Source of the DNA: Candidatus Woesearchaeota archaeon
Lineage (GTDB): Archaea; Nanobdellota; Nanobdellia; Woesearchaeales; SKGA01
Reading direction: 5' to 3'
Length of the DNA stretch: 45,809 bases
Assembly: GCA_050187915.1 (NCBI GenBank)
Contig: JBFXLI010000007.1
Coordinates: forward strand, 1-45,809
Part shown: one piece after another, positions 20,273 through 40,410 of the stretch
How the letters are laid out: the number at the start of each line of letters is the position of its first letter
How positions within the stretch are numbered: the first letter of the stretch is position 1
Made by a program: the position numbers and the translations under genes
The notes under the pieces: generated by a model
The model's database searches: none
What the model was told of the DNA's origin: nothing
The model's input: only the letters and a program-made list of their open reading frames with translations

Positions 20273-20392
20273 GCATCGGTAGTCTAACGGCTAGGATACG
20301 GGCCTTCCATGCGCTAGAATCAAAGATTCGCTGAATCTTCTCTAGTGAGAAGATAGCCTGTGATTCGGGTTCGAATCCCGGCCGATGCACCA
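20273..20392 (+). tRNA. tRNA-Gly(UCC) with a 45-nt intron at the canonical 37/38 position (20310-20354) and an encoded CCA
   Basis: The hand-folded cloverleaf has acceptor GCATCGG/CCGATGC, anticodon stem CGGGC/GCCTG, loop CTTCCA[intron]A, T arm TCGGG-TTCGAAT-CCCGG and discriminator A followed by CCA. Confidence 0.85.
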
Positions 20393-22257: not shown

Positions 22258-22887
22258 ATGAAATTTGTTGTATTTGGAGATATACATGGTGACTTATTTG
22301 CTCTTGAAGAAGTTAGACATAAGTGTAATGTTGATGGTGTTGAAATAGCTATTTGTATTGGGGATTTAAGTTATTTTGAACATGATTTAGATTTTTTACT
22401 TGAGGTTTTAAATGATTTTCCAGTTCCTGTTTTAATTATACATGGTAATCATGAATTAAAGGAAAATGTTGAATTAATTACAAGTTATTTACCTAATTTA
22501 AGTTTTGTACACAAGAAAATTATTAAAATGAAAAATTTTAATTTTATGTTTTATGGTGGTGATGGATTTAGTAAATTAGATAAAGAATTTGAAGAGTGGA
22601 GTAATAAAGAAATTAAAAAACTAGATGTTGAAAATACTATTTTATTTTTACATGGTCCTCCTTACAATACTAAATTAGATGTTCCGTATGACAATCATCA
22701 TTGTGGTAATAAATCAACAAAAAAATTTTTAGAAAAACAACAAATTTTAATGAGTGTTTCTGGACATGTTCATGAAGGAGAAAATTTAACTGATTTTGTT
22801 GGAAAAACATTTTTGATAAATCCAGGACCTCTTGGTATGATTATTGATTTGAAAGATATACAAAAACAAAGAGAATTAAAAAATTAA
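22258..22887 (+). CDS. Calcineurin-like metallophosphoesterase
   Basis: It contains VVFGDIHGD, IGDLSYF, HGNHE, LHGPP and GHVHEG. Confidence 0.85.
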   Translation: MKFVVFGDIHGDLFALEEVRHKCNVDGVEIAICIGDLSYFEHDLDFLLEVLNDFPVPVLIIHGNHELKENVELITSYLPNLSFVHKKIIKMKNFNFMFYGGDGFSKLDKEFEEWSNKEIKKLDVENTILFLHGPPYNTKLDVPYDNHHCGNKSTKKFLEKQQILMSVSGHVHEGENLTDFVGKTFLINPGPLGMIIDLKDIQKQRELKN

Positions 22888-23411
22888 ATATTTCCGTTTC
22901 TTAAATCTAGAACTGAACGTATTTCATCTAATATTATTTCACTTGTCTTAGCATCAAATCTTGTGTTTATCATCATAAATGCTTGTGTTATGGTTGTAAT
23001 ATTATATATTTGTTGTCCATCAATTACTTGCACTATCATTAAAAATGAATTTGGAATTTGGCTTGAATATTTTTTAGTTATGTGTTCATTAAGATGTTCT
23101 AATATTTGTTTTGTAGATACAAATGATTTTAAATTTGTTAATTCTTGTATTATTCCTTCTTCTTTAAATGCATTTTCGAAATCTAATAATTTTATTGGAT
23201 TTAATTCAAATATTGCTAAATTATCTTTTTCTTTTGAATAAAATCCTATTTGCCAAGGTGATTTTTCTGAAAAATCTTTATTTAATTGTATGAAACCATG
23301 TGCTAAAGTGTATGATGGATTTTCTTTAGAAAATTTTTCATATTCTTTTGAACTTTCTAATTCTTTTATTGCTTCGCTAAATTCTTTAACCATTTTGTTT
23401 ATGTAGAACAA
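22884..23411 (-). CDS. Hypothetical protein
   Basis: This is a 175-aa ORF with no recognisable motif. Confidence 0.45.
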   Translation of the reverse strand: MFYINKMVKEFSEAIKELESSKEYEKFSKENPSYTLAHGFIQLNKDFSEKSPWQIGFYSKEKDNLAIFELNPIKLLDFENAFKEEGIIQELTNLKSFVSTKQILEHLNEHITKKYSSQIPNSFLMIVQVIDGQQIYNITTITQAFMMINTRFDAKTSEIILDEIRSVLDLRNGNI

Positions 23412-23469
23412 AAGATTATTTATAAATACAACTGAATTATTTATAAATAGGTAGGAATTGCTCTTAAAT

Positions 23470-26082
23470 ATGGCTGAAAAAGAACCTTTTAAAAAAATAA
23501 GTGCTAAAGAAAAATATCATATTAAACATATGTTGAAGGAACTTGAAAGTATTAGAGGTAGGCACACTGAATTAATCACATTATATATTCCTGCAGGTTA
23601 CGATATTAATGCTAAAATTGCTCAAATTCAACAAGAACAAGGTACTGCTACAAATATTAAAAGTAAAAATACACGAGATAATGTTATTGCTTCACTTGAA
23701 AAAATGGCTCAATTTTTAAGAGGTTTTAAAACTACACCTCCTAATGGACTTATGGTTTTTTCAGGTAATGCTGCTGAAAGAGAAGGGCAACAAGATTACA
23801 GAGTTTGGAGTTTTGAACCTCCTGTTCCTTTAAAACAAAACTTGTATAGGTGTGATAAAGAATTTGTACTTGATCCTATGAGAGATATGATTGAAGATAA
23901 AATTCTTTTTGGACTTGTTGTTATGGATAAAAGAGAAGGCAATATTGCTATGCTTAAAGGTAAAACTATTATTCATTTGGATACTATGACTTCTGCGGTT
24001 CCTGGGAAAACTAAGAGCGGGGGTCAATGTTTAGTTAGAGATTCTGCTGTTCAATTAGGGAGTGGAAATATTGTCTCTATTTGTGAAACTCATAATCCTT
24101 TAGCTGTTAAAAGTATGGTTGGAGATTATATTGGAACTAGTGATATAACTGATAAATGGGAAGTTCCTAAAGAAGAAGTTTATACTATTACAACTAAATA
24201 TCCTCGATTACAAGTTTCTTGTTCTAAAGATCATATATTCTTTGTTAGAACTTCGTCAGGCATTGTTGAGAAAAGTGCTTCTGAATTGAAGGTTGAAGAT
24301 GCTTTAATTATGCCTGAAATTATTGATGTTAAGGGAGTTAAGCAAAAGTTAGTTGCTAAAGATTATGTTTGTTATATTGTTTCTAAAGATGGTTTGAATG
24401 AATTTATTTCTAAACGAAAGGAATTAAATTTGAGTCAGAAAAAATTTGGAGAGATTAGTGATGTTCCTCAATCTAATATTAGTGCTTTTGAAAGAGGAGT
24501 GATTAATTTTACGGAGAATGTTTTGAACAGGTTGTTGAAAAATCTAGGTTTGGAAAATTTTTCTAAATATTTACAGATTAGACGCAAGGTTACTTTGCCT
24601 AAGGTTTTAGATAAAAATGTTGCTCAATTTATTGGTTATTACTTTGGTGATGGTTGTTCTGAAGATCACCGAATTACTTTATTTGAACAAAGAAAGGATG
24701 TTGCTTTGGAGTATAAACAGTTAGGTGAGAAATTATTTAATGTTGAAGGTAAGTGTAAATTTAGAGAAAGTAAAAATTATTATCAAATTCGTTTTGATGC
24801 TTTTGTGATTGTTAAGTTTTTAAAAGATAATTTTCCTGAGTTGAAAAAAGCTTTGGATAGTTGCGTTCCTAAAAAAATCATGGAGTCTAGTAATGATGTT
24901 GTTGCTGGTTTTTTGAAAGGATTGTTTGATGCTGAAGGTTATGTTGTTAAAGATAAAGTTGGAATTGGTTTGAACAATAAAAAAACCATTCAAACTATGC
25001 AGATGATGTTTTTGAGATTTGGAATAATTTCTTCTTTCTTAGAATATGACAATAATAGAAATAAATATTCAAACAATATTCGTTATTCGTTACAAATTAC
25101 TGATAAGGAATCTTTGGAGATTTTTCAACAAGTTATTGGTTTTACAGCTAAGGATAAATCTTTGAAGTTGAAAAAGTGTATTTTAAATAAAACTGACAAG
25201 AGTTCTGTAAGGCAGATTGTTGTTGCAGGAAGTATAGTTAGAAAACTTATTGAGAAATTTGGTTATAATTCTGAGAAATATGCTAAGGCTAATATGTTTT
25301 TAAGAGATAAACGAGAGATTAGTAAGGTTGTTTTTAAGAAAATTTTTATTGAAGGAACCAAAGATGTTAGTTTGAAATCTGAGTTTCAAAAGATTTATGC
25401 CAGAAAGATATTGCCTGTCAAGATTTCTTCGATTGATGTTAAAAAGGAGAAAAATATTATGATTGATATTAGTACTTCTAAGCAAAATTTTATTGCTAAT
25501 TGTTTAATAGTACACAATTCAGCTCAACGTTTTGAGCGTTTAAGAGATGGTGCTGCAATTGATTTTTATAAAAGAATTGCTGAGAGTATGAAAGAAAAAT
25601 TTCTAGATAATCAAACTGAACTTCAAGGAATTATTATTGGTGGTCCTGGTTTTACAAAATTTGAATTTGCTGATGGAAACTATATTAATGAAACTTTAAA
25701 AAGAAAAATTATTGCTGTTAAAGATATTTCTTATACTGGAGAATTTGGTGTTACTGAACTTGTTGAAAGAAGTGAAGATGTTCTTGCTGAAGAAGAAGTT
25801 ATTAAAGAAAAACAATTAATGAGAAGATTTTTTGAGTTATTATCTAAAGCTTCTGAAAAAGCTGCTTATGGATTTGATGATGTTTTAAAATATACTGAAA
25901 TGGGTGCTGTTGAAACAATTTTAGTTTCTGAAGAATTAGATGATAATGATATTGAAATTCTTGAAAAGGCATCTGATTTAGTTGGAACTAATTTAGAAAT
26001 TATTTCTGTTGAGACTCGTGAAGGTGTTCAATTGAGGGATATGGGTAAGGTTGTTGCTATTCTCAGATATTCTGTTGAATAA
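23470..26082 (+). CDS. prf1: Peptide chain release factor aRF1, interrupted by an intein
   Basis: It contains the NIKS motif (GTATNIKSKNTRDN) and a GGQ motif (PGKTKSGGQ) followed after the intein by SAQRFERLRDG. The extein total is about 373 aa. The start was set at the first ATG (MAEKEP...), whereas the track starts at a TTG at 23458. Confidence 0.9.
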   Translation: MAEKEPFKKISAKEKYHIKHMLKELESIRGRHTELITLYIPAGYDINAKIAQIQQEQGTATNIKSKNTRDNVIASLEKMAQFLRGFKTTPPNGLMVFSGNAAEREGQQDYRVWSFEPPVPLKQNLYRCDKEFVLDPMRDMIEDKILFGLVVMDKREGNIAMLKGKTIIHLDTMTSAVPGKTKSGGQCLVRDSAVQLGSGNIVSICETHNPLAVKSMVGDYIGTSDITDKWEVPKEEVYTITTKYPRLQVSCSKDHIFFVRTSSGIVEKSASELKVEDALIMPEIIDVKGVKQKLVAKDYVCYIVSKDGLNEFISKRKELNLSQKKFGEISDVPQSNISAFERGVINFTENVLNRLLKNLGLENFSKYLQIRRKVTLPKVLDKNVAQFIGYYFGDGCSEDHRITLFEQRKDVALEYKQLGEKLFNVEGKCKFRESKNYYQIRFDAFVIVKFLKDNFPELKKALDSCVPKKIMESSNDVVAGFLKGLFDAEGYVVKDKVGIGLNNKKTIQTMQMMFLRFGIISSFLEYDNNRNKYSNNIRYSLQITDKESLEIFQQVIGFTAKDKSLKLKKCILNKTDKSSVRQIVVAGSIVRKLIEKFGYNSEKYAKANMFLRDKREISKVVFKKIFIEGTKDVSLKSEFQKIYARKILPVKISSIDVKKEKNIMIDISTSKQNFIANCLIVHNSAQRFERLRDGAAIDFYKRIAESMKEKFLDNQTELQGIIIGGPGFTKFEFADGNYINETLKRKIIAVKDISYTGEFGVTELVERSEDVLAEEEVIKEKQLMRRFFELLSKASEKAAYGFDDVLKYTEMGAVETILVSEELDDNDIEILEKASDLVGTNLEIISVETREGVQLRDMGKVVAILRYSVE
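24028..25518 (+). mobile_element. Intein (497 aa) with a LAGLIDADG homing endonuclease and an XRE-type HTH, inserted between Q of GGQ and Ser
   Basis: It starts CLVRDSAVQL (Cys1) and ends CLIVHN, followed by Ser at +1. Block B is likely VSCSKDHIFFV. The LAGLIDADG motifs are FIGYYFGDG and FLKGLFDAEGYV. The HTH is LSQKKFGEISDVPQSNISAFERG. Confidence 0.88.
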
Positions 26083-31259: not shown

Positions 31260-33194
31260 TTAGTTTTTAGATGTTAAATAAGAGCTTATTGGAATTAAGT
31301 TTTTACCAAATAGTTCATATTGTTCTAGAAGTTTATTAAATAAAGGTGGTTGTTTTGCATTTTTTATGTTTTCTTTTGTGAACGAATGTGCGTTTTTTAG
31401 GACTTCATCTACATATGTAAAATCAGGATTTGGAACTTTTAGATATCCTTTCATGTGTGACAAAATTCTATGATAGAGTAAAGCTAATTGCATATCTACA
31501 GATTCTTCCATGAATGGTTTCATTAAAGTATTTCTTACATTTATAGGGGTTACTGAAGGTTCATAAAAAAGTGTGTTTATTGGTTCTGCATTTTGAGATA
31601 GTTTTGATAATTCATTGTCTATGAATTCTATATCTTCGCCATAAAGGAAATTTCGAATTAGTGAATCTGTTGTTGGTTTTAATTTTGTATCTTGTAAAAT
31701 AATATCTAGTGTATCATTTGTTAACCCTTTTTTGTAAATGGTTTCATCTGGAAATATTAATCCATTTTCACCTAAGTGTTTTTCTTTTAAATCTACTTTT
31801 TTGAAATTGAAAGTTTTATCTTCGTATGTAAATCCTGTACCTAAAACATCTTGCATTTTTTCAGTAAGATTCATAATTTTTTGAAAGATAATTAATATTT
31901 CTTTTTCAGAGGGTTTGTATTTTTTTATATATTCTAAAATGTTCGGTTGCCAAGATTGTGTTGAGATTAATATTTTTTTGTCTTTTACATCTCCTAAATA
32001 TATCATTTTTTCAGTTTTAATTTGTTTTGATTGTAAAAATTTAGTTTTATAAAATTCTCCTTCTATTGCTTGTTTATTTTTACTTAATTTAAAAAATACT
32101 GCAAAATCTAAAGGAGAATATTTTCTTTGTTTGGATGCTAATATTTTTGCAGTTCCTTTAGTTCCTCCTGCTGGTTCTAATTCATCTACAAATGTTTCTG
32201 GATTTATTACTTTTGAAAATTCTTTCCAAACTTTATTTGCATATTCTGGTTCGTATTTATCAAAAAATAATCCTAAGGAGGAAAGTAGTTGTGTTTTTTC
32301 TTCATCGGAATGTTTAATAGTTTGATTATTAATTATTTCTTCCAACGCTTCTTTTGCATATTTAATTTTTAAATTTAAGTTTACATCCATTGGTAGAACC
32401 GAATTAAATTTAAATATATTAGAAGACTTTTCAAATTTTATTTCATTGTAAAAAAGCATTCTTCCTAAAAAAGAAAATCTTTTAAGTTTGGAAGTTAGAT
32501 ATAAATATTTTATTGCATATCCCATTCCTTCGACATAATTTTCTGACATTGCAAATGATGCAATATTTTGTAATACAGCAGGATCTTTTGGATTTAATTT
32601 TTGAGACGCTTTGAAAAATTTTTTTGGATTCTGTGTCGCACTATAATAAATAGTTTGCATGAATGGTTTAAATTTAAGAATTATAAATTTTAAAGTTTCA
32701 GGCACTTGTTTTATTGTTGTATCTTTTATCGCGAAGAAACTAAAAATTCCAACAGATAATTTGTGCATGGATTGTAAAATGTTTTTTGAGTTCTCTAACA
32801 AATAGTCTTTATTTAATAATAAATTTTGATTTATATTATATTCATCAAATGTTTTTGGCATGAATTTATTTAAAAAAATTAAGCCTCCTGTAAAATAAAT
32901 AGCATTATAAAAAAGTCTTTCTAAACCACCATCTTTTTCACGTATTTCTAAAGGTTCATTAATCAATTCATTTCCAAGTTCTGAAAGATGTTTTTTTGAA
33001 GGTGTATTAGCAAGATAAAACGCATATATGGGTACTGCCGATCTTAGAACCTCTCTTAAATTAATAACATCATTTTCACTTAACAAATATGCTCCTACCA
33101 ATAATGTTTCTAGAATTCTTTTTTTAGTGTCTATTTTATATGGAATTGAAAACATATTCCATAAATGTGATAAAGTTGATTTTTTATTTTGCAA
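31260..33194 (-). CDS. Hypothetical protein (644 aa), no recognisable domain
   Basis: It is a long uninterrupted ORF in an AT-rich background, which makes a chance open frame unlikely. Confidence 0.55.
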   Translation of the reverse strand: MQNKKSTLSHLWNMFSIPYKIDTKKRILETLLVGAYLLSENDVINLREVLRSAVPIYAFYLANTPSKKHLSELGNELINEPLEIREKDGGLERLFYNAIYFTGGLIFLNKFMPKTFDEYNINQNLLLNKDYLLENSKNILQSMHKLSVGIFSFFAIKDTTIKQVPETLKFIILKFKPFMQTIYYSATQNPKKFFKASQKLNPKDPAVLQNIASFAMSENYVEGMGYAIKYLYLTSKLKRFSFLGRMLFYNEIKFEKSSNIFKFNSVLPMDVNLNLKIKYAKEALEEIINNQTIKHSDEEKTQLLSSLGLFFDKYEPEYANKVWKEFSKVINPETFVDELEPAGGTKGTAKILASKQRKYSPLDFAVFFKLSKNKQAIEGEFYKTKFLQSKQIKTEKMIYLGDVKDKKILISTQSWQPNILEYIKKYKPSEKEILIIFQKIMNLTEKMQDVLGTGFTYEDKTFNFKKVDLKEKHLGENGLIFPDETIYKKGLTNDTLDIILQDTKLKPTTDSLIRNFLYGEDIEFIDNELSKLSQNAEPINTLFYEPSVTPINVRNTLMKPFMEESVDMQLALLYHRILSHMKGYLKVPNPDFTYVDEVLKNAHSFTKENIKNAKQPPLFNKLLEQYELFGKNLIPISSYLTSKN

Positions 33195-39664: not shown

Positions 39665-39791
39665 GCGGGAGTAGTTCAGCCTGGTTAGATCGCCACGCTC
39701 ATAAATGGAACTTGAGCGATGAGAAGAAATTCGATGATTATCAAGTTGCGGTGTACCGTGGAAGTCCGGAGTTCAAATCTCCGCTCCCGCA
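39665..39791 (+). tRNA. tRNA with a CAU anticodon (elongator Met or Ile2) and a 52-nt intron at or next to position 37/38
   Basis: The fold has acceptor GCGGGAG/CTCCCGC, anticodon stem CCACG/CGTGG and loop CTCATAA. The anticodon is at 39700-39702 and the intron spans about 39705-39756. The T arm is CGGAG-TTCAAAT-CTCCG and the discriminator is A. The G1:C72 pair and the absence of a GGG/CCC stem argue against an initiator tRNA. Confidence 0.85.
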
Positions 39792-40305: not shown

Positions 40306-40329
40306 GAAGTTCAATTTGAGAAGAAAGAG

Positions 40330-40410
40330 CGCCACGACTCAGATTTGAACTGAGAATCCGTAAGGACCGGTTTTCGAGACCGGCGCAATACCGAGTTATG
40401 CGATCGTGGC
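40330..40410 (-). tRNA. tRNA-Ser(CGA), class II, no intron
   Basis: The hand fold is GCCACGA TC GCA TAACTCGGTAT TGC G CCGGT CTCGAAA ACCGG TCCTTACGGATT CTCAG TTCAAAT CTGAG TCGTGGC G. The anticodon is at 40374-40376. It has a long variable arm and a G discriminator. Confidence 0.85.

What the first reader, a model, noticed from the sequence alone, without database searches (positions are those of the whole stretch)
24028..25518. Intein inserted exactly behind the catalytic GGQ motif of release factor aRF1
The aRF1 ORF reads ...VPGKTKSGGQ | CLVRDS...(497 aa)...CLIVHN | SAQRFERLRDG.... The junctions have all the hallmarks of a class-1 intein: Cys1, terminal HN and a +1 Ser. The insert has two LAGLIDADG motifs and an extra XRE-type HTH.

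The insertion point is the universally conserved GGQ loop that triggers peptidyl-tRNA hydrolysis, so unspliced protein should be inactive. Inteins classically sit in such conserved sites of replication or energy-metabolism proteins. I do not recall aRF1/GGQ among the commonly listed intein insertion sites, but I cannot verify that here.

Because this is presumably the cell's only class-I release factor, translation termination would depend on protein splicing.
Basis: partly seen in the sequence, partly recalled or inferred. Interest (0 to 1): 0.75.

Follow-up and report, generated by a model that had tools for sequence, protein, structure and literature searches.

The report
Mobile intein inside aRF1 GGQ motif
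The gene for the archaeal translation-termination factor aRF1 in this window is interrupted, right after its catalytic GGQ motif, by a self-splicing and self-spreading protein element (an intein with a homing endonuclease): an ordinary kind of element, at a site I found in no paper but which is common in DPANN archaeal sequence data.

Summary
Window 24028-25518 (+) encodes a 497-aa insert in an 870-aa aRF1 ORF, with junctions GGQ|C...HN|S.

Removing the insert gives a 373-aa protein that scores 411.7 bits on the aRF1 equivalog TIGR03676 (cutoff 234.7). This protein is 86% identical to an intein-less aRF1 at the same syntenic locus in a relative.

The insert has an Intein_splicing (Hint) domain, two LAGLIDADG motifs with intact catalytic D and E, and an XRE-type HTH. 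Its AlphaFold model (pLDDT 95) matches archaeal homing-endonuclease inteins such as TliVMA, PI-PfuI and PI-TkoII.

All 120 best-scoring Woesearchaeota/Nanoarchaeota aRF1 homologs listed, and at least 62 representatives of 50%-identity clusters, carry a related intein at this site.

Several lines indicate an actively homing element:
- Presence is patchy, with at least 11 gains or losses on a 240-sequence extein tree.
- Intein and extein similarity disagree strongly in both directions.
- dN/dS is about the same in intein and extein (0.17).

Ten literature searches found no description, but JGI's automatic annotation already names some copies "eRF1/intein/homing endonuclease".

Verdict: a new member (insertion site) of a known kind, of moderate interest.

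Side observation: related DPANN aRF1s, mostly Aenigmarchaeota, read GGW, GGM or GGF instead of GGQ.

The parts
23470..26082 (+). aRF1 precursor ORF (870 aa from the ATG; an in-frame TTG lies 12 nt upstream at 23458), including the stop codon
   Evidence: The database copy P0001 is 870 aa and 100% identical.
23470..24027 (+). N-extein: aRF1 N domain (NIKS at aa 62, YRCDKEF at aa 126-132) and the first half of the M domain, ending in GGQ (aa 184-186)
   Evidence: TIGR03676 scores 411.7 bits on the spliced extein.
24028..25518 (+). Intein, 497 aa, 56.9 kDa, pI 9.4
   Evidence: AlphaFold pLDDT 95, pTM 0.90. Best Foldseek matches are 7qss, 1dq3 and 2cw7.
24028..24381 (+). N-terminal Hint (splicing) subdomain, with block A (CLVRDSAVQLGSG) and block B (S66-K-D-H69)
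   Evidence: C1, S66 and H69 are invariant in 120 homologs. The model shows beta-strands over residues 1-118.
24412..24552 (+). XRE/Cro-type HTH_3 module inserted between the Hint-N subdomain and the endonuclease (intein aa 129-175)
   Evidence: Pfam HTH_3 E = 2e-7, 31.3 bits against a cutoff of 23. The model shows helices at 120-173. Recognition-helix residues Q137, Q148, S152, E155 and G157 are at least 90% conserved.
24595..25143 (+). Double-motif LAGLIDADG homing-endonuclease core (intein aa 190-372)
   Evidence: LAGLIDADG_3 E = 4.7e-16. phmmer hits the TliVMA and PI-PfuI endonuclease regions. dN/dS is 0.136.
24616..24654 (+). LAGLIDADG motif 1 (NVAQFIGYYFGDG; catalytic D208)
   Evidence: G207 and G209 are invariant and D208 is at least 90% conserved.
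24901..24939 (+). LAGLIDADG motif 2 (VAGFLKGLFDAEG; catalytic E303)
   Evidence: D301 and G304 are invariant and E303 is at least 90% conserved.
25144..25398 (+). Helical region between the endonuclease core and the C-terminal Hint strands (intein aa 373-457). Its function was not tested; it may be an additional DNA-contact domain.
   Evidence: The model shows helices at 375-457 with pLDDT above 90.
25399..25518 (+). C-terminal Hint subdomain, with block F (NIMIDISTSKQNFIAN, D480) and block G (NCLIVHN)
   Evidence: D480, F488, H496 and N497 are invariant in 120 homologs.
25519..26082 (+). C-extein, starting with the nucleophile Ser+1 (SAQRFERLRDG...): the rest of the aRF1 M domain and the C domain, including the stop codon
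   Evidence: S+1 is invariant in 120 of 120 homologs.

Best explanation
This is a genuine full-length class-1 intein with a LAGLIDADG homing endonuclease, inserted in the housekeeping aRF1 gene of a Woesearchaeota/Nanoarchaeota (DPANN) archaeon. It sits between the Q of the catalytic GGQ motif and the following Ser.

Inferred mechanism:
1. The gene is translated as a 99-kDa precursor. Its GGQ loop carries a 57-kDa domain, so it should not be able to reach the peptidyl-transferase centre.
2. The Hint domain then splices itself out. Cys1 performs an N-S acyl shift at the Gln-Cys bond, the acyl group is transferred to Ser+1, and Asn497 cyclises with help from His496. An O-N shift then restores a native GGQ-S peptide bond.
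3. The products are active 42-kDa aRF1 and a free basic intein (pI 9.4).
4. The free intein is a monomeric double-motif LAGLIDADG endonuclease, with an XRE-type HTH as an extra DNA-binding module. It cuts intein-less aRF1 alleles at the GGQ-coding site and is copied in by repair (homing).

What is shown here: the anatomy, the conservation of splicing and endonuclease residues, the empty orthologous site, and the population signatures of mobility and purifying selection. What is inferred: splicing itself, DNA cleavage, and the inactivity of the precursor.
For: Anatomy and domains:
- Coordinates and junctions are exact.
- Pfam finds Intein_splicing, LAGLIDADG_3 and HTH_3 inside eRF1_1, eRF1_2 and eRF1_3.
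- The spliced extein scores 411.7 bits on TIGR03676 aRF1, cutoff 234.7.

Conservation in 120 homologs:
- GGQ|C, HN|S, S66, H69 and D480 are invariant.
- The catalytic D208 and E303 are at least 90% conserved.

Structure:
- The AlphaFold model has pLDDT 95 and pTM 0.90.
- Best Foldseek hits are the TliVMA intein 7qss (E = 1e-23, TM 0.66/0.75), PI-PfuI 1dq3, PI-TkoII 2cw7 and PI-SceI.
- phmmer against PDB sequences finds the same entries.

Empty site:
- The intein-less aRF1 P0121 is 86% identical to the spliced extein.
- It lies in the same gene order: MazE/PhoU-like, metallophosphoesterase, hypothetical, aRF1, SprT-like, M50 protease, ELP3, TRM.
- It reads GGQ|SAQRF contiguously.

Mobility:
- Intein presence needs at least 11 changes on an NJ tree of 240 exteins. 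The window's allele and P0002 are nested among intein-less alleles.
- Some pairs have inteins 83-91% identical but exteins only 46-58% identical. Others have exteins 89-93% identical but inteins only 58-63% identical. The nearest neighbour agrees between extein and intein in only 32 of 120 cases.
- Intein GC3 is 0.197, above all 27 other ORFs in the window (mean 0.133, sd 0.025).

Selection:
- Against the 81%-identical homolog on L001, dN/dS is 0.166 in the intein and 0.168 in the extein. The endonuclease core gives 0.136 and the HTH 0.20.
Against: - There are no experimental data on splicing or cleavage.
- Block B has Ser rather than the usual Thr (SxxH).
- The NCBIfam domain models intein_Nterm (TIGR01445) and intein_Cterm (TIGR01443) did not reach E = 0.1 on this copy, although they hit relatives.
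- The window's HTH departs from the family consensus at three near-invariant positions (F140, G141, S149) and is the fastest-evolving part.
- The dN/dS estimates come from one pair, with dS near 0.7-1.3 in an extremely AT-rich genome, so they are rough.
- This particular copy is only 79% identical to its nearest known intein and at most 50% identical to the rest. Recent movement of this copy is therefore not shown; only movement within the family is shown.
Confidence: 0.9

Rival explanations
1. The intein can splice but its endonuclease is dead. In this reading the element persists only by vertical inheritance, because precise deletion from an essential catalytic loop is hard.
For: This copy has no close (more than 80% identical) intein relative apart from P0002, whose extein is equally close. 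That is compatible with vertical descent within this small clade. Inteins with degenerate endonucleases are common (established knowledge).
Against: Both catalytic acidic residues and both LAGLIDADG helices are intact and conserved. The endonuclease core has the lowest dN/dS of any part, at 0.136. The family shows strong intein/extein incongruence and patchy presence. The closest exteins are intein-less.
Confidence: 0.12
2. The intein has been co-opted as a post-translational switch. Conditional splicing (redox, temperature, ions) would gate the supply of active aRF1, and that benefit would explain why it is retained. This is not exclusive of homing.
For: The intein is nearly as conserved as the extein (57% against 61% mean pairwise identity) and shows purifying selection throughout. 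Conditional splicing is documented for other archaeal and bacterial inteins (established knowledge; Novikova et al. 2016, PMC4760082, argue for functional retention).
Against: Close relatives do well without it: 86% and 83% identical intein-less alleles exist and most of the surrounding clade is intein-less. Apart from Cys1, no Cys position is listed as invariant or at least 90% conserved except one (column 170 of the family alignment), where the window has Leu, so a conserved disulfide trap is unlikely. The conservation is explained equally well by selection for homing and for fast splicing.
Confidence: 0.08
3. The insert is a lineage-specific, non-splicing domain of aRF1, or an assembly or annotation artefact.
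For: None beyond the absence of experimental proof of splicing. NCBI's PGAP pipeline names such proteins 'helix-turn-helix domain-containing protein'.
Against: All four splicing blocks and the nucleophiles are invariant. The Hint fold is predicted with high confidence. A permanent 57-kDa domain on the GGQ tip is incompatible with entry into the peptidyl-transferase centre (inference from eRF1-ribosome structures). The same architecture appears in hundreds of independent assemblies.
Confidence: 0.01

Closest known systems
Thermococcales VMA (V-ATPase A) inteins with homing endonuclease: TliVMA and PhoVMA (PDB 7qss, 7qsu, 7qst)
   Same: Best sequence matches (phmmer E = 2e-12) and best fold matches (Foldseek E = 1e-23, TM 0.66/0.75). 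Both are archaeal class-1 inteins with a Hint domain plus a double-motif LAGLIDADG endonuclease.
   Different: The host protein and site differ (ATPase P-loop region against the aRF1 GGQ loop). Identity is only 13-16%. No HTH_3 module was reported by my searches for those entries.
PI-PfuI (1dq3), PI-TkoII (2cw7) and PI-SceI (1vde, 1lws)
   Same: The same bifunctional splicing-plus-homing architecture, with extra DNA-contact regions besides the LAGLIDADG core (stirrup domain or DRR; established knowledge). Foldseek E = 1e-20 to 1e-12.
   Different: Here the extra DNA-binding module is an XRE/Cro-type HTH_3 placed between Hint-N and the endonuclease. The hosts are ribonucleotide reductase, DNA polymerase and VMA1, not a translation factor.
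HTH_3-bearing LAGLIDADG inteins in other archaeal genes (Top6A P0310, dCMP deaminase P0311, P0314). Relatives in which no HTH_3 was detected occur in RadA, GlmS, DHH/RecJ-like proteins and UDP-GlcNAc 2-epimerase.
   Same: The same Hint + HTH_3 + LAGLIDADG_3 domain order, at 27-29% identity over the whole intein. The HTH is therefore a feature of an intein subfamily, not of aRF1.
   Different: The insertion sites and hosts differ. These are separate intein alleles.
Archaeal aIF2/IF-2 intein (NCBIfam PRK14845 contains it)
   Same: It is another intein in a translation factor. The NCBIfam model containing it is the best NCBIfam hit of this intein (E = 7.6e-16). Novikova et al. list aIF2 among archaeal intein hosts.
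   Different: It sits in an initiation GTPase P-loop, not in the catalytic loop of a termination factor.
WhiA (3hyi, 8dy9)
   Same: A LAGLIDADG scaffold combined with an HTH DNA-binding domain (Foldseek E = 2.5e-6 for 3hyi).
   Different: WhiA is a non-splicing, non-cleaving transcription factor with a C-terminal HTH. It is an analogy of domain combination only.

Membership tests
Class-1 intein (Hint domain, blocks A/B/F/G) | Cys, Ser or Thr as the first residue (block A nucleophile) | tested here: met
   Cys1 at nt 24028-24030. It is invariant in 120 of 120 homologs.
Class-1 intein (Hint domain, blocks A/B/F/G) | Block B TxxH motif | tested here: met
   S66-K-D-H69. His69 and Ser66 are invariant. 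Ser replaces the usual Thr, a conservative variant.
Class-1 intein (Hint domain, blocks A/B/F/G) | Block F Asp, and block G penultimate His plus terminal Asn | tested here: met
   D480, H496 and N497 are invariant.
Class-1 intein (Hint domain, blocks A/B/F/G) | Cys, Ser or Thr at C-extein position +1 | tested here: met
   Ser+1, invariant in 120 of 120 homologs.
Class-1 intein (Hint domain, blocks A/B/F/G) | Hint fold | tested here: met
   Pfam Intein_splicing scores 58.3 bits, cutoff 35.8. The model has pLDDT 95. The top Foldseek hits are all intein crystal structures.
Class-1 intein (Hint domain, blocks A/B/F/G) | In-frame insertion whose removal restores a contiguous, conserved host protein, with intein-less orthologs existing | tested here: met
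   The spliced extein scores 411.7 bits on TIGR03676. The syntenic intein-less ortholog on L002 reads GGQ|SAQRF.
Class-1 intein (Hint domain, blocks A/B/F/G) | Actual protein splicing (precursor converted to ligated exteins plus free intein) | not testable with these tools
   This needs expression or proteomics.
LAGLIDADG homing endonuclease (monomeric, double motif) | Two LAGLIDADG helices, each ending in a catalytic acidic residue | tested here: met
   FIGYYFGDG (D208) and LKGLFDAEG (E303), both conserved. Model helices 196-208 and 289-303 coincide with them.
LAGLIDADG homing endonuclease (monomeric, double motif) | Evidence of mobility (homing) in populations | tested here: met
   Patchy presence with at least 11 changes. 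Intein/extein incongruence in both directions. This is evidence for the family, not specifically for the window's copy.
LAGLIDADG homing endonuclease (monomeric, double motif) | Site-specific cleavage of the intein-less allele | not testable with these tools
   This needs an in vitro cleavage assay on the empty site (L002-type sequence).
aRF1/eRF1 class-I release factor (TIGR03676) | Score above the equivalog cutoff, plus NIKS, YxCxxxF and GGQ motifs | tested here: met
   411.7 bits against a cutoff of 234.7. NIKS at aa 62, YRCDKEF at aa 126-132 and GGQ at aa 184-186 of the spliced protein.
aRF1/eRF1 class-I release factor (TIGR03676) | Sole class-I release factor of the genome | not testable with these tools
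   Only 45.8 kb is available. It is the only eRF1-family ORF in the window and sits at the orthologous locus.
XRE/Cro-type HTH (Pfam HTH_3) | Score above the Pfam gathering threshold, and a helical bundle in the model | tested here: met
   31.3 bits against a cutoff of 23. Four helices at residues 120-173. DNA binding itself was not tested.

The most novel reading that the evidence does not exclude
In these small-genome DPANN archaea, the supply of active release factor would be set by intein splicing. The GGQ-site intein would be kept not only as a selfish element but as a conditional post-translational gate on translation termination. The unspliced precursor, which retains an intact stop-codon-reading N domain, could even act as a competitive, hydrolysis-dead stop-codon binder that tunes readthrough or stalls termination under stress.
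Probability: 0.08. Interest if true: 0.75.

Novelty: new member of a known kind. Interest (0 to 1): 0.4.

Why it matters
1. It adds a translation-termination factor, at its catalytic GGQ loop, to the list of intein hosts. A second site, at the stop-codon-reading YxCxxxF cysteine, was seen in relatives. Translation proteins are reported to hold few inteins (PMC4760082). Both sites fit the rule that inteins sit in the most conserved functional motifs.

2. The family offers a large natural data set for studying the homing cycle in uncultivated DPANN archaea. It includes hundreds of alleles, empty sites at the same locus, mini-inteins, and variants with and without the HTH.

3. There is a practical consequence. 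NCBI's PGAP pipeline names these essential genes 'helix-turn-helix domain-containing protein' or 'LAGLIDADG family homing endonuclease'. aRF1 can therefore look absent from such genomes, and marker-gene alignments can be disturbed.

4. An intein that splices between Gln and Ser in a tight Gly-rich loop may be useful for protein engineering.

Tried and rejected
- Literature. Ten full-text searches found no paper describing an aRF1/eRF1 intein. Terms combined intein with aRF1, eRF1, peptide chain release factor, Woesearchaeota, DPANN and insertion site. The Bodo saltans virus paper mentions both eRF1 and inteins, but not together. No supplement text of Novikova et al. 2016 was held. InBase itself could not be queried.

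- Genome-contig scan with an alignment of intein-less aRF1. It was meant to estimate how many GTDB species carry the intein and whether any genome has two copies. One of the automatically chosen patterns (PGK..GGQS) spans the insertion site, and ranking favoured contiguous matches. All 80 loci returned were intein-less, so no prevalence estimate is possible. It did show that the nearest species representatives are Woesearchaeota/Nanoarchaeota, at only 69-70% identity.

- Viral-contig scan with junction-spanning patterns. It found no viral aRF1 intein, only distant LAGLIDADG hits at 23-27% identity. There is no evidence for a viral vector.

- Pelota hypothesis for the GGW, GGM and GGF hosts. 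This was rejected: they score 347-451 bits on the aRF1 equivalog and only 54-109 bits on pelota.

- Redox-trap idea. Apart from Cys1, only one Cys column (170) is at least 90% conserved in the family, and the window has Leu there. I did not pursue it.

- Target-site DNA conservation in 80 empty alleles. Only first and second codon positions are conserved. This says nothing specific about the endonuclease's recognition sequence.
Full report
**Observation.** The window holds one uninterrupted ORF on the + strand, from 23458 (TTG) or 23470 (ATG) to 26082. Translating it places Cys1 of the insert at nt 24028 and the terminal Asn at 25516-25518, giving 497 aa, exactly as the finding states. The junctions are ...VPGKTKSGGQ|CLVRDS... 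and ...CLIVHN|SAQRFERLRDG.

Pfam finds eRF1_1, eRF1_2 and eRF1_3 in the flanks. Inside the insert it finds Intein_splicing (58.3 bits, cutoff 35.8), LAGLIDADG_3 (59.3 bits, cutoff 22.5) and HTH_3 (31.3 bits, cutoff 23). The computationally spliced 373-aa protein scores 411.7 bits on the NCBIfam aRF1 equivalog TIGR03676, whose cutoff is 234.7. It carries NIKS, YRCDKEF and GGQ. Predicted masses are 99.2 kDa for the precursor, 42.3 kDa for spliced aRF1 and 56.9 kDa for the intein, whose pI is 9.4.

**Is it an intein?** A search with the whole precursor returned 619 proteins at E <= 1e-10. The best 120 all have the same roughly 870-aa architecture and about 50% identity. They come from Woesearchaeota/Nanoarchaeota metagenome-assembled genomes.

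In their alignment the following are invariant: GGQ|C, HN|S, block B S66 and H69, block F D480, and F488. The two LAGLIDADG motifs keep their catalytic D208 and E303 in at least 90% of sequences.

An AlphaFold model of the insert, built on that alignment, has mean pLDDT 95 and pTM 0.90. It shows beta-rich N- and C-terminal parts, a four-helix module at residues 120-173, and alpha/beta repeats whose long helices coincide with the LAGLIDADG motifs. Foldseek against the PDB ranks homing-endonuclease inteins first: TliVMA 7qss (E = 1e-23, TM 0.66/0.75), PI-PfuI 1dq3, PI-TkoII 2cw7, PhoVMA 7qst and PI-SceI. Free-standing LAGLIDADG enzymes and WhiA follow. A sequence search of PDB chains finds the same VMA and PI-PfuI entries. 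Every defining sequence and fold feature of a class-1 intein and of a double-motif LAGLIDADG endonuclease that can be tested in silico is met.

**Empty site and orthology.** Searching with the spliced extein shows that its closest relatives are intein-less 373-374-aa aRF1s: P0121 at 86% and P0122 and P0123 at 83%.

The contig of P0121 (L002) and the contig of the closest intein-bearing homolog P0002 (L001, 81% identity) share the window's gene order. That order is MazE/PhoU-like, metallophosphoesterase, hypothetical, aRF1, SprT-like, M50 protease, ELP3, TRM. L001 holds only the part from aRF1 onward.

At the DNA level, L002 reads ...GGTGGGCAG|AGCGCTCAACGT... (GGQ|SAQR), with nothing between the codons that flank the intein in the window and in L001. 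The insert is therefore a precise in-frame insertion in the orthologous housekeeping gene. It is the only eRF1-family ORF in the window.

**Mobility and selection.** On a neighbour-joining tree of 240 exteins (120 intein-bearing, 120 intein-less), intein presence needs at least 11 changes. The window's allele and P0002 sit among intein-less alleles.

Intein and extein similarity correlate only weakly (r = 0.43). Some pairs have inteins 83-91% identical on exteins only 46-58% identical, for example P0073 and P0090. Other pairs have exteins 89-93% identical with inteins only 58-63% identical. The nearest neighbour is the same for extein and intein in only 32 of 120 cases. This is the pattern expected of repeated horizontal homing.

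Mean pairwise identity is 61% for exteins and 57% for inteins. The endonuclease part averages 60% and the HTH 49%. Between the window and L001, dN/dS is 0.168 for the extein and 0.166 for the intein. By part it is 0.19 for Hint-N, 0.20 for the HTH, 0.136 for the endonuclease and 0.14 for Hint-C. These values are rough, because dS is high and the genome is very AT-rich, but the internal comparison is fair.

The intein's GC3 (0.197) exceeds that of all 27 other ORFs in the window (mean 0.133, sd 0.025), a mild foreign-origin signal. No viral copy was found.

**Breadth.** An exhaustive search of 1.84 billion cluster representatives with the intein alone gave 2,232 hits at E <= 1e-3 and 72 at E <= 1e-30.

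At least 62 of the top 149 are aRF1s interrupted at the same position. They include:
- Canonical-length aRF1s that carry the C-domain mini-domain.
- Inteins of about 410-430 aa that lack the HTH.
- Mini-inteins: about 267 aa in P0297 and 133 aa in P0478.

More distant relatives (27-29% identity) sit in RadA, Top6A, dCMP deaminase, GlmS, DHH/RecJ-like proteins, UDP-GlcNAc 2-epimerase and a terminase. Several of them carry the same HTH_3 module. The HTH is thus an accessory DNA-binding module of an archaeal intein subfamily. I infer that it helps target recognition, by analogy with the extra DNA-contact regions of PI-SceI and PI-PfuI.

**Mechanism (inferred).** The precursor carries a 57-kDa domain on the loop that must enter the peptidyl-transferase centre, so it should be inactive in hydrolysis until it splices. 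Splicing would follow the standard class-1 route: Cys1 thioester, transfer to Ser+1, Asn497 cyclisation, then O-N shift. This restores GGQ-S. The released basic intein would cleave empty aRF1 alleles and be copied in by repair. Splicing, cleavage and precursor inactivity are not shown here.

**Comparison with what is known.** Ten full-text searches found no description of an intein in aRF1 or eRF1. Novikova et al. 2016 never mention a release factor in their main text and state that core translation components contain few inteins. From memory, unverified, aRF1 is not among InBase allele names.

The allele is nevertheless abundant in public data. JGI's automatic annotation already calls some copies 'peptide subunit release factor 1 (eRF1)/intein/homing endonuclease'. 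NCBI's PGAP pipeline mislabels them 'helix-turn-helix domain-containing protein' or 'LAGLIDADG family homing endonuclease'.

I therefore rate it a new member (a new insertion site) of a well-known kind. It is moderately interesting rather than surprising. It fits the rule that inteins occupy the most conserved functional motifs of essential proteins.

**What remains open.**
- Whether the organism has a second aRF1 cannot be tested from 45.8 kb.
- Whether the window's own endonuclease is still active is unknown.
- Whether splicing is conditional is unknown.
- The genome-contig scan meant to give prevalence and copy number was biased toward intein-less alleles by its pattern choice.

**Side observations.**
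1. About 13 intein-bearing representatives have W, M, F or S instead of Q before the intein. They are nevertheless clear aRF1s, scoring 347-451 bits on TIGR03676 with NIKS and YxCxxxF intact.
2. A search with one spliced GGW extein found 118 of 120 intein-less homologs reading GGW, followed by SQ in 85 and SA in 33. Where a source names them, they are called aRF-1 of Aenigmarchaeota.
3. One of these GGW genes lies on a 1.1-Mb contig beside ribosomal-protein genes, and the W codon is TGG.
4. A GGQ sequence, P0486, is 70% identical to GGW ones, so these look like orthologs rather than old paralogs.
5. Burroughs and Aravind 2019 (PMC6514570) describe GGxSQ in VLRF1 families. The passages containing my search terms do not mention GGW aRF1s. 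I could not test whether these genomes also hold a GGQ copy.
6. Two representatives (P0279, P0302) carry a second aRF1 intein, inserted so that the Cys of YxCxxxF is the +1 nucleophile (YLYM|C...HN|CDDHYHL, junction read in P0279).

Noticed in passing
Not in the window. Proteins P0390-P0509; example locus L083:6001-7218. Intein-bearing examples: P0264, P0280, P0288, P0291 (GGW); P0286, P0290, P0295, P0317, P0339 (GGM); P0251, P0263, P0274, P0296 (GGF); P0277 (GGS).: Large DPANN clades have aRF1 proteins in which the 'universal' catalytic GGQ reads GGW, GGM or GGF. Where a source names the GGW ones, they are Aenigmarchaeota. Of 120 intein-less homologs of one such extein, 118 read GGW (85 GGWSQ, 33 GGWSA). 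They pass the aRF1 equivalog cutoff (347-451 bits) and keep NIKS and YxCxxxF. One lies on a 1.1-Mb contig next to ribosomal-protein genes, with W encoded by TGG. A GGQ sequence (P0486) is 70% identical to them. I could not determine whether these genomes also carry a GGQ copy, and my searches found no paper on this.
   Followed up: partly
Not in the window. Protein P0279, residues about 125-365, and P0302, residues about 131-594.: There is a second intein insertion site in aRF1, inside the stop-codon-recognition motif YxCxxxF. The motif's Cys serves as the +1 nucleophile (YLYM|CLSPG...FLVHN|CDDHYHL in P0279). These proteins also carry the GGQ-site intein, so they hold two inteins in one release factor.
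   Followed up: partly
Not in the window. P0478 (538 aa), P0297 (682 aa); P0249, P0251, P0252, P0255, P0291, P0296, P0305, P0307.: The same aRF1 site also holds mini-inteins (133 aa in P0478, about 267 aa in P0297) and inteins of about 410-430 aa that lack the HTH module. This is a full series from complete to reduced forms, as expected from the homing cycle.
   Followed up: partly
Database annotation of homologs of window 23470-26082.: NCBI's PGAP pipeline names intein-bearing aRF1s 'helix-turn-helix domain-containing protein' or 'LAGLIDADG family homing endonuclease'. The essential release factor can therefore look absent from these genome annotations. JGI labels some correctly.
   Followed up: no
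Window 20273-20389 (+) and 39665-39791 (+); also 40329-40410 (-).: Two tRNA matches of 117 and 127 nt were found by Rfam but not by ARAGORN, so they are probably intron-containing archaeal tRNA genes. ARAGORN found one ordinary tRNA-Ser(CGA).
   Followed up: no
Window 23470-26082 (spliced product) compared with other archaeal aRF1s.: The Woesearchaeal aRF1 is short (373 aa). It lacks the insertion of about 40 aa (the Cys-rich mini-domain) in domain C that the longer aRF1s in the alignment have.
   Followed up: no
Window 24028-25518.: Intein GC3 is 0.197, higher than in all 27 other ORFs of the window (mean 0.133, sd 0.025). The extein has 0.112. This is a mild sign of foreign origin or of weaker codon adaptation.
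   Followed up: yes
Loci L004, L008, L009, L020-L023, L054 and others; P0170.: Many contigs carrying Woesearchaeota-type aRF1 are titled 'uncultured Methanosarcinales archaeon', 'Alphaproteobacteria bacterium' or 'Bacteroidota bacterium' in the public records. These are probably taxonomic mislabels or mis-binned contigs.
   Followed up: no
Window 31260-33194 (-) and 22884-23411 (-).: A 644-aa ORF and the 175-aa ORF immediately upstream of aRF1 have no Pfam match at E <= 1e-3. An unannotated ORF of similar size (200 aa) occupies the same position on L002, the intein-less relative's contig.
   Followed up: no
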